DNA of 63,873 nt, counting the filler, from Bipalium vagum (lineage: Eukaryota): the NCBI GenBank assembly GCA_037834085.1. It is 3 parts of 3 records of this genome, joined end to end, with 100 filler letters (N's around TTAATTAATTAA, not from the genome) between each part and the next. Parts side by side here need not be neighbours in the genome. Positions count along the whole stretch, not along the records: positions 27,761 to 46,782 come from JBBMKC010009435.1; 2 more parts are not named here. One strand, given 5' to 3'. This document shows, piece by piece, positions 43,279 to 44,193 of the stretch. A program made the position numbers and the translations under genes. Numbering within the stretch: the first letter of the stretch is position 1; each line of letters opens with the position of its first letter. Below the pieces are notes generated by a model that worked only from the letters and a program-made list of their open reading frames with translations, searched no databases and was not told the origin of the DNA.

Positions 43279-44193
43279 TGTTACTATTATCCTTAGATGT
43301 AACAACGTGTGCTCGTCTACTCGTTACTCCTCACTTTTTATAACTCGTTATGTTCGTAATTCCTCTCAACCTTTTCGAATTTAAAACACCCTCCTCAATA
43401 CTGTATCCGCATCCTTAAGAACTAATTCAAAATACTTAAAATAAAACTTTATTCGCAACAATTAAAACTTCTAAATCAAACCCAAAACGTTATCAACGAA
43501 TAAAATAAACTCAATTTTAACGTTAATACTGAAGAAAAAATCAAAGCAATAATTAATAATAATAACATAAAGGAAAATAAAATAAATAAAAGTATCGATC
43601 TCACCAAGAGCGACAAGGGGTTCCCGGATCACCCTCTAGGCTTTTCTCAGGTCGCCAAGGGGTTCCCAAGCTCGCTGGGTCCCCTTGTAAAAATCCGGCT
43701 GTATCATCGAGGAAAAATAAAATAATTACTGGGATCGTCTTTGGTCTCGTCTTCTGCGGGAGCGGGAATATTCTTGTACCGTTTTTGGTCCAAAACGTCT
43801 GTGAATCGTCTTCGGTTTAATTCGTCCTGGATTGAATTTGCTCTGAGTTCTCTTTCGGGTTTTCTTGTTTTTTTGGCCATTAACGGGAATAGCCGTCTCC
43901 TTATATAGTCATAGAGATTGGTCTACGATCACTAATCCCTACGCTTAGAAACAGCTATTTCCTTGAATCCATTAGCTTTGACAAGAGACTATCTCGGCGT
44001 AGAGATAGTGAAAGCTATTAGGGAAAAATAGCCGTCTCTAAGCGTAGGGATTGGTGATCGCAGACCAATCTCTACGACTATAAAAGGAGACGGCTATTCC
44101 CGTTAATGGCCAAAAAAACAAGAAAGCGCGAAAGAGAACCCAGAGTAAATTCAATCCAGGACGAATTAGACCGAAGACGATTCACAGTTTTGG
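43279..44193 (-). mobile_element. LTR-like repeat arm (minus) with an inverted duplication of its promoter end (~400-bp palindrome)
   Basis: Minus strand: CCAAT, TATATAA (43907-43901), GCGAATAAAAGTTTTATT poly(A) signal, end ...TAAGGATAATAGTAACA. Segment 43790-43990 is inverted at 44005-44193. Confidence 0.7.

What the first reader, a model, noticed from the sequence alone, without database searches (positions are those of the whole stretch)
43279..44193. Head-to-head LTR-like fold-back element with a symmetric bidirectional CCAAT/TATA promoter
Seen: 43790-44193 is a ~400-bp palindrome centred on the hairpin ACTATCTC-GGCGTA-GAGATAGT (43988-44009). The arms differ by scattered substitutions, so it is not a perfect assembly duplication. 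Each arm has ATTGG/CCAAT and a TATA box pointing outward (TATAAAA 44079-44085 on +; TATATAA 43907-43901 on -). The left arm continues through AATAAA to a ...GTAACA terminus at 43279; the right arm is cut off at a TGG microhomology with a mariner fragment. A diverged arm (45245-45999) and a promoter fragment (59355-59420) show it is a family. Known: LTRs run TG..CA with U3-R-U5 order but are normally direct repeats; Ginger transposons have TGT..ACA TIRs. Inference: the intact unit may be a ~1.4-kb palindrome of two LTR-like arms sharing one U3, firing near-identical RNAs both ways. It sits ~1.2 kb upstream of the ABCC start and the left TATA points at ABCC.
Basis: partly seen in the sequence, partly recalled or inferred. 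Interest (0 to 1): 0.7.

Follow-up and report, generated by a model that had tools for sequence, protein, structure and literature searches.

The report
Penelope-type fold-back repeat in a flatworm
The mirror-image DNA next to this flatworm transporter gene is real and belongs to an abundant repeat family; it is most likely the back-to-back end-piece left by a Penelope-type jumping gene, a known pattern, and its shared central hairpin would give a way to test how these elements copy themselves.

Summary
The palindrome is real: arms 43799-43960 and 44026-44187 differ at 11 of 162 positions. The host is a flatworm. Contigs of run X1 show a very abundant family with a sharp end at 43279 and the central hairpin present in other, differing copies, so the centre is not unique to this locus. 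The LTR/Ginger reading fits poorly. The second copy (45243-45999) is a single arm without a TG start or inverted ends, flanked by a 9-bp direct repeat (chance 0.5-2.4%); LTR and Ginger duplications are 3-6 bp. It carries a hammerhead-like motif 60 nt from its end, the only such match in the window, though position 3 is G, not C. Head-to-head arms joined at a palindrome, a TATA box, a splice donor, a 3' hammerhead and 8-10-bp duplications are the described anatomy of Penelope-like pLTRs. No Penelope ORF lies in the window, and no RNA data exist, so membership, transcription and any effect on ABCC are unproven. The scan has noted similar pLTR fold-backs in other genomes. Verdict: likely Penelope-type fold-back, an unusual variant; modest interest.

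The parts
43279..43960 (-). Left arm, complete to the family terminus; read as an inverted pseudo-LTR (pLTR)
43279..43304 (-). Terminus ending GTAACA, with a short terminal stem-loop (weak here: 654 of 2000 shuffles fold as well; strong in copy 2: 12 of 2000)
   Evidence: (38 contigs with loose ends before 43279)
43300..43334 (-). Partial hammerhead-like motif: TGAGGA core box shared with copy 2, but only a 2-bp stem II and GAGC in place of GAAA
   Evidence: not found by Rfam
43440..43457 (-). 18-nt block containing AATAAA, identical in copy 2 (45862-45879)
   Evidence: 0 of 200 shuffles reach the score
43600..43700 (-). GC-rich conserved block ending in a GTGAG splice-donor-like site (43604), followed by AT-rich, intron-like sequence
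   Evidence: (depth 19-31k); coding signal not significant
43712..43885 (-). Variable region: rare in the family (summed depth 279-1220) yet shared by both arms
43886..43960 (-). Left promoter-like head: CCAAT (43921), TATA (43907-43901)
   Evidence: deepest bin, 82,566
43961..44025 (.). Asymmetric centre with the 8-bp-stem hairpin at 43988-44009; present in other copies
44026..44193 (+). Right arm, cut off; head forms a nested hairpin (z -7.3) with ATTGG 44050, CCAAT 44065, TATA 44079-44085
44191..44435 (+). Mariner 3' remnant joined to the right arm at a TGG overlap (right end approximate)
45243..45999 (+). Copy 2: single, about 70%-diverged arm, no TG start, no inverted ends, small hairpin at its 5' junction
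45234..45242 (+). Left copy of the 9-bp flanking direct repeat (ATATTAAAC), at the step from 13% to 51% GC
46001..46009 (+). Right copy of the 9-bp flanking direct repeat, one base after GTAACA
45940..45973 (+). Minimal type-I hammerhead-like motif (4-bp stem II closed by G-C, GAAA, short palindromic helix III, UU), position 3 is G instead of C
   Evidence: not found by Rfam
59356..59426 (+). Promoter-head fragment only
41745..42031 (-). First two coding exons of the neighbouring ABCC/MRP1-like gene (host; ATG 42031)

Best explanation
This is most likely the head-to-head pseudo-LTR pair of a Penelope-like retroelement (PLE) in a flatworm: two copies of one ~720-bp arm joined at a shared hairpin, the right one cut off by a mariner remnant. 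Shown: the palindrome, the fixed outer end, the centre shared with other copies, and a single-arm copy with a 9-bp flanking repeat. Inferred mechanism: a PLE reverse transcriptase/GIY-YIG endonuclease supplied in trans would nick AT-rich DNA and copy an arm RNA from its 3' end. When copying stops early, one arm is left with a target duplication (copy 2). When the cDNA folds back at the central hairpin and self-primes, an inverted second arm results (main locus). Each arm would act as promoter (CCAAT, TATA), leader, intron and hammerhead region for whatever lies downstream. The right arm was later deleted into a mariner at a TGG overlap.
For: 9-bp direct repeat round copy 2: 97 and 489 of 20,000 null draws reach 9 bp, and it sits exactly at the GC step. 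A. vaga PLE inserts have 8-10-bp duplications, head-to-head pLTRs overlapping at a palindrome and a TATA box, and are closest to the flatworm Perere10 clade (PMC3846280). Hammerhead-like motif 60 nt from the 3' end is the only match in the window on both strands; 0.07 expected per shuffled window, 7 of 5000 shuffles of the element. Paired hammerheads on opposite strands mark inverted pLTRs in Schistosoma (PMC4209133). Donor-like GTGAG followed by AT-rich sequence is kept in both copies; pLTRs hold the start site and a 5' intron (PMC8557442). Centre covered by 99 contigs at summed depth 5-7k against 24 for single-copy flank; all 8 listed pieces cross the hairpin loop and differ from the window. 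Internal modules (TATA head, GC block, AATAAA block, end) are kept between 70%-diverged copies, as expected if the RNA matters. Both arms share a region rare in the family, so they are not two independent insertions. Host is a flatworm (DIP2 best hits trematodes, 61-64%).
Against: No PLE reverse transcriptase or GIY-YIG ORF among 122 window frames scanned (23, 99). The hammerhead core has G at position 3 in both copies, which breaks the canonical 3-8 pair; the left arm lacks GAAA; Rfam finds no hammerhead. The descriptor was my own and was relaxed at position 3 after I saw the motif. A second core-plus-GAAA look-alike at 43398 is not the family state, so such motifs do arise by chance. The end matches the TGTNR pattern of Gypsy LTRs and Ginger (PMC2836005). 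A conserved AATAAA 130-175 nt before the end fits an LTR R/U5 layout better than a template that must reach the 3' end. The promoter head is deeper than the 3' end (83k against 30k), the reverse of plain 5' truncation. The duplication rests on one copy. Only 1 of the 8 listed pieces (of 99) has 31 letters on both sides of the loop, and none shows a full inverted arm in another copy.
Confidence: 0.63

Rival explanations
1. Non-autonomous fold-back DNA transposon with ~680-bp inverted repeats, a ~65-bp spacer and TGT...ACA ends, moved by a Ginger2-type transposase; possibly built from two LTRs in opposite orientation, as proposed for the origin of Ginger ends.
For: End fits TGTNR, and Ginger2 prefers AT-rich targets (PMC2836005). 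Terminal 17 nt are identical in two 70%-diverged copies. Centre is shared by other copies. Long arms round a short spacer recall C. elegans Tc4/Tc6 (recalled; not found).
Against: Copy 2 is a single arm with a 9-bp flanking repeat and no inverted ends; Ginger duplications are 4-5 bp and its inverted repeats 40-297 bp. Conservation of internal RNA-type modules is not needed by a cut-and-paste passenger.
Confidence: 0.15
2. Ordinary Gypsy/BEL LTR family; this locus is a chance head-to-head arrangement or local fold-back of solo LTRs.
For: TATA, AATAAA and ACA end in LTR order; planarian genomes are rich in Gypsy elements (PMC6431247, PMC11410931).
Against: No TG start at the head of either arm or of copy 2; no primer-binding site after either GTAACA; 9-bp rather than 3-6-bp duplication; centre recurs in other copies; both arms share a rare variable region and the left arm stops exactly at the family end.
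Confidence: 0.09
3. A target-primed but non-PLE element (an undescribed ORF-less, Pol II-driven retroposon borrowing another enzyme) that forms fold-backs at a fixed hairpin.
For: Long duplication without a poly(A) tail; strong TATA/CCAAT head unlike the TATA-less D. virilis promoter (PMC2377424); non-canonical hammerhead core; no tRNA head.
Against: Every other feature is already described for pLTRs, and hammerhead-less PLEs (Naiads) exist.
Confidence: 0.1
4. Assembly artefact (fold-back chimera).
For: No long reads were available.
Against: Arms differ at 11 of 162 positions, 9 of them transitions; at several of these the right arm's letter is the one most other contigs carry; differing contigs cross the centre.
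Confidence: 0.03

Closest known systems
Endonuclease-positive Penelope-like elements with inverted pLTR (Adineta vaga Pen2a/Pen2/Pen3a, nearest the flatworm Perere10 clade; PMC3846280)
   Same: Head-to-head pLTRs overlapping at a palindrome, TATA box in the pLTR, 8-10-bp target duplication, AT-rich targets, solo pLTRs.
   Different: Arms are ~720 bp against ~180-220 bp; paired CCAAT boxes in a nested hairpin; far more abundant; no ORF seen here; end reads TGT...ACA.
Schistosoma Cercyon PLE minimal hammerheads (PMC4209133)
   Same: Minimal type-I motif with G10.1-C11.1 and a palindromic helix III near the arm end; pairs on opposite strands.
   Different: Position 3 is G against G8 (neither C3-G8 nor U3-A8); stem II is 4 bp, not 7-8; an intact pair would lie ~1330 bp apart, against 100-700 bp.
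Drosophila virilis Penelope pLTR (PMC2377424, PMC8557442)
   Same: Promoter and splice site inside the pLTR; inverted terminal copies common; reported able to drive downstream genes.
   Different: That promoter is internal and TATA-less; here a TATA/CCAAT head lies upstream of the predicted start.
Ginger2/TDD DNA transposons (PMC2836005)
   Same: TGTNR end, AT-rich target.
   Different: 4-5-bp duplication and 45-297-bp inverted repeats; a single arm could not move.
DIRS-1 (PMC5633606)
   Same: Inverted LTR-like repeats with promoters.
   Different: Its inverted LTRs surround three ORFs and transcribe the interior; here the TATA boxes face away from a 65-bp centre.

Membership tests
Penelope-like elements (EN+) | ORF with telomerase-related RT and GIY-YIG endonuclease next to the pLTR | not testable with these tools
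   No genome held; right arm is cut off; no such domain in 122 window frames scanned.
Penelope-like elements (EN+) | Inverted, head-to-head pLTR with a palindrome at the junction | tested here: met
   pattern in PMC3846280.
Penelope-like elements (EN+) | Long target duplication (8-10 bp in A. vaga) in AT-rich DNA | tested here: met
   9 bp round copy 2, null 0.5-2.4%; one copy only.
Penelope-like elements (EN+) | Canonical hammerhead core (C3-G8 or U3-A8) in the pLTR; absent from Naiads | tested here: not met
   No exact core on the transcript strand; a G3 variant matches once; Rfam blank.
Penelope-like elements (EN+) | Start site and intron inside the pLTR | tested here: inconclusive
   Conserved TATA and donor-like site; no acceptor fixed, no RNA.
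Penelope-like elements (EN+) | Optional 30-40-bp tail at one end | tested here: inconclusive
   Depth falls from 29,802 to 2,250 across the last bins, but a small indel near the end could give the same fall.
LTR retrotransposon (Gypsy/BEL) LTR | TG start and CA end on the same repeat | tested here: not met
   CA end present; copy 2 begins AGG inside its duplication.
LTR retrotransposon (Gypsy/BEL) LTR | 3-6-bp target duplication | tested here: not met
   9 bp; range from PMC10045372.
LTR retrotransposon (Gypsy/BEL) LTR | Direct repeats round gag-pol with PBS and PPT | not testable with these tools
   No PBS after either window end; other copies not readable.
Ginger1/Ginger2 DNA transposons | TGTNR termini | tested here: met
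   TGTTA at 43279.
Ginger1/Ginger2 DNA transposons | Two inverted ends with a 4-5-bp duplication | tested here: not met
   Copy 2 has one end and a 9-bp duplication; not testable at the main locus, whose right end is lost.
DIRS | Inverted repeats surrounding gag/RT/recombinase ORFs with an internal complementary region | tested here: not met
   Only 65 nt lie between the arms.

The most novel reading that the evidence does not exclude
The whole ~1.4-kb palindrome is itself the spreading unit: an ORF-less retroelement family that has reached hundreds of copies by self-priming at one fixed central hairpin, carries two outward TATA/CCAAT promoters and a non-canonical G3 hammerhead, and seeds bidirectional promoters beside host genes such as this ABCC.
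Probability: 0.25. Interest if true: 0.65.

Novelty: new variant of a known kind. Interest (0 to 1): 0.35.

Why it matters
How Penelope-like elements make their inverted ends is open: self-priming at a junction palindrome was proposed from a handful of rotifer copies (PMC3846280). A family with a shared junction hairpin in many copies would let that model be tested by counting junction positions, arm lengths and duplications. If the arms are live promoters, they would also place outward-facing TATA promoters and long double-stranded RNA next to host genes. If it proves an ordinary decayed pLTR pair, it matters only as a repeat-library entry for this flatworm.

Tried and rejected
No genome is held for this window, so genome-wide copy counts could not be run. 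No RNA holder listed; this says nothing on expression. In one search positions 43952-43963 had no cover; the tool states that a hole proves nothing. X1 may be the window's own source and is not independent support; summed contig depth is not a copy number. Pattern scans found nothing in metagenome contigs or viral contigs. Sequence look-ups in earlier findings were blank. The 58-aa frame behind the TATA box: no Pfam hit, best Atlas score 0.78 with low recognition, and it lies in the least conserved region, so treated as incidental. Coding reading of the GC block: three frames score alike and 1396 of 3000 random placements do as well; no homologue. Coding reading of the arm's 3' end: a 57-codon open frame in copy 2 is reached by 430 of 20,000 shuffles and has no homologue among 1.84 billion proteins; left open but unsupported. 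Rfam's MIR447 hit is far below its gathering score and reflects the long hairpin. No tRNA gene, so not the tRNA-bearing solo LTRs noted elsewhere in this genome. No reliable duplication for the 59356 fragment (only low-complexity repeats). Parvovirus-type hairpin dimer and the planarian element PEVE (both recalled) rejected: the arm ends at a fixed genomic terminus with mixed flanks and holds no replication ORF. The Schmidtea genome paper (Grohme 2018) is not held.

Full report
Observation. The window holds an inverted repeat with 162-nt arms at 43799-43960 and 44026-44187, 65 nt apart; a gapped alignment gives 176 of 190 identical positions and the ungapped part differs at 11 sites, 9 of them transitions. 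The right arm runs into a mariner C-terminal remnant (Mos1 match, E=2.1e-6). A diverged arm at about 45243-45999 and a head fragment at 59356-59426 are confirmed. The ABCC start codon is at 42031, 1248 bp from the terminus. The host is a flatworm: the nine best DIP2 hits are eight trematode proteins and one unnamed protein, at 61-64% identity.

Family evidence. No genome is held. One run, X1, holds the stretch as contigs; it may be the window's own source. Laid at 80% likeness, 3496 contigs fit 42700-44070. Single-copy flank has depth about 24. The arm is modular: end region 8-30k, AT-rich part 2-3k, GC block 19-31k, variable region 0.3-1.2k, TATA head 83k. These sums are not copy numbers but show a very abundant family. 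Thirty-eight contigs leave the element at 43279 into mixed AT-rich flanks (median 255 letters, agreement 0.45), so the terminus is real. The two differences listed inside the TATA box fall on its degenerate positions; 44 further rows were not shown. On the centre alone (43952-44041), 99 contigs fit at summed depth 5-7k; all 8 listed pieces cross the hairpin loop and differ from the window, and 1 of the 8 has 31 or more letters on both sides. The centre is therefore a family trait. No listed piece joins it to a full inverted arm in another copy, so the intact 1.4-kb palindrome is inferred. Both arms share the region that is rare in the family, which argues against two independent insertions.

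The deciding copy. Copy 2 is a single arm. It is flanked by a 9-bp direct repeat at 45234-45242 and 46001-46009, one base after GTAACA; the left copy sits exactly where GC content steps from 13% to 51%. Null draws reach 9 bp in 97 and 489 of 20,000 cases. Inside the repeat the element begins AGG, not TG, and has no inverted ends. Duplications are 3-6 bp for LTR elements and 4-5 bp for Ginger (PMC10045372; PMC2836005), but 8-10 bp for A. vaga Penelope inserts (PMC3846280).

Hammerhead test. No exact CUGANGA core lies on the transcript strand of either arm. With position 3 left free, a minimal type-I descriptor matches once in the window, at 45940, 60 nt from the end of copy 2; shuffled windows give 0.07 matches and 7 of 5000 shuffles of the element match. 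The descriptor is my own and was relaxed after seeing the motif; the published one (PMC4209133 Fig. 1B and supplement) was not visible. The left arm keeps the same core box at the homologous place (43334) but has a 2-bp stem II and no GAAA. Rfam finds no hammerhead. A look-alike at 43398 is not the family state. This is supporting but incomplete evidence, and G at position 3 would be expected to impair cleavage.

Interpretation. Head-to-head pLTRs that overlap at a palindrome, a TATA box in the pLTR, long duplications in AT-rich DNA and solo pLTRs are described for Penelope elements nearest the flatworm Perere10 clade, and the junction palindromes were read as self-priming sites (PMC3846280). 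pLTRs hold the start site and a 5' intron, and Naiads lack canonical hammerheads (PMC8557442). Reverse transcription starts in an AC-rich stem-loop and targets AT-rich DNA (PMC11167929); copy 2 ends in a stem-loop that 12 of 2000 shuffles match, though the left arm's is weak (654 of 2000). I therefore read the locus as an inverted pLTR pair (0.63). The enzyme, the template RNA and the self-priming step are inferred. Against it: no PLE ORF in 122 frames scanned, the altered core, a TGTNR end, an LTR-like AATAAA position, and a head deeper than the 3' end. Rivals are a Ginger2-type fold-back (0.15; PMC2836005 discusses Ginger ends arising from two opposed LTRs), another target-primed element (0.10), a chance LTR arrangement (0.09) and an artefact (0.03). 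Coding readings of the arm were tested and not supported.

ABCC. The left TATA faces the gene, and Penelope pLTRs are reported able to drive downstream genes (PMC2377424), but nothing here shows transcription or a chimeric RNA.

Novelty. The architecture is known, and this scan has noted ORF-less pLTR fold-backs in other genomes (unchecked notes, seen after the PLE lead came). What differs is the arm length, the paired CCAAT/TATA head in a nested hairpin (z -7.3), the G3 motif and the abundance of a shared centre. Ten literature searches showed no description of this family in their listings; subscription papers and Repbase were not searchable.

What I saw of each paper. PMC3846280: passages and sections 6 and 11. 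PMC4209133: passages and parts 1-2 of 4. PMC2836005: passages and section 9. PMC8557442, PMC11167929, PMC2377424, PMC10045372, PMC6431247, PMC11410931, PMC5633606, PMC7084138, PMC9071541: passages only. bioRxiv 10.64898/2026.07.22.740005: abstract and outline. No supplements or figures were seen; they may bear on hammerhead variants. Tc4/Tc6, PEVE, parvovirus ends, the TATA consensus and the N-terminal likeness to MRP1 are recalled, not taken from a call.

Noticed in passing
window 44106-44288 (+): The deletion fuses the right arm's short frame in register with the mariner C-terminal remnant, giving a 60-aa chimeric frame just behind the right TATA box; probably incidental.
   Followed up: partly
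window 43910-44076 and 59373: An 11-nt motif built round CCAAT occurs five times in the palindrome's heads and centre and once in the distant fragment, and nowhere else in the window; the central hairpin may be a degenerate copy of it.
   Followed up: partly
window 4296-24360 (+): DIP2 gene with long GC-rich exons; best hits are trematode proteins.
   Followed up: partly
window 48576-55926 (-): Glycine cleavage T (aminomethyltransferase) exons, head to tail upstream of ABCC.
   Followed up: no
window 197-809, 40003-40188, 56457-56873: Further Tc1/mariner remnants (Transposase_1, HTH_48, weak HTH_SB and DDE_3 hits).
   Followed up: no
window 30749-30815 and 31848-31914: 67-nt inverted repeat pair 1 kb apart inside an ABCC intron, round frames that look like a decayed DDE transposase.
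   Followed up: no
window 42108-42115 (-): An 8-nt match to the element's last bases lies about 80 nt upstream of the ABCC ATG; probably chance.
   Followed up: no
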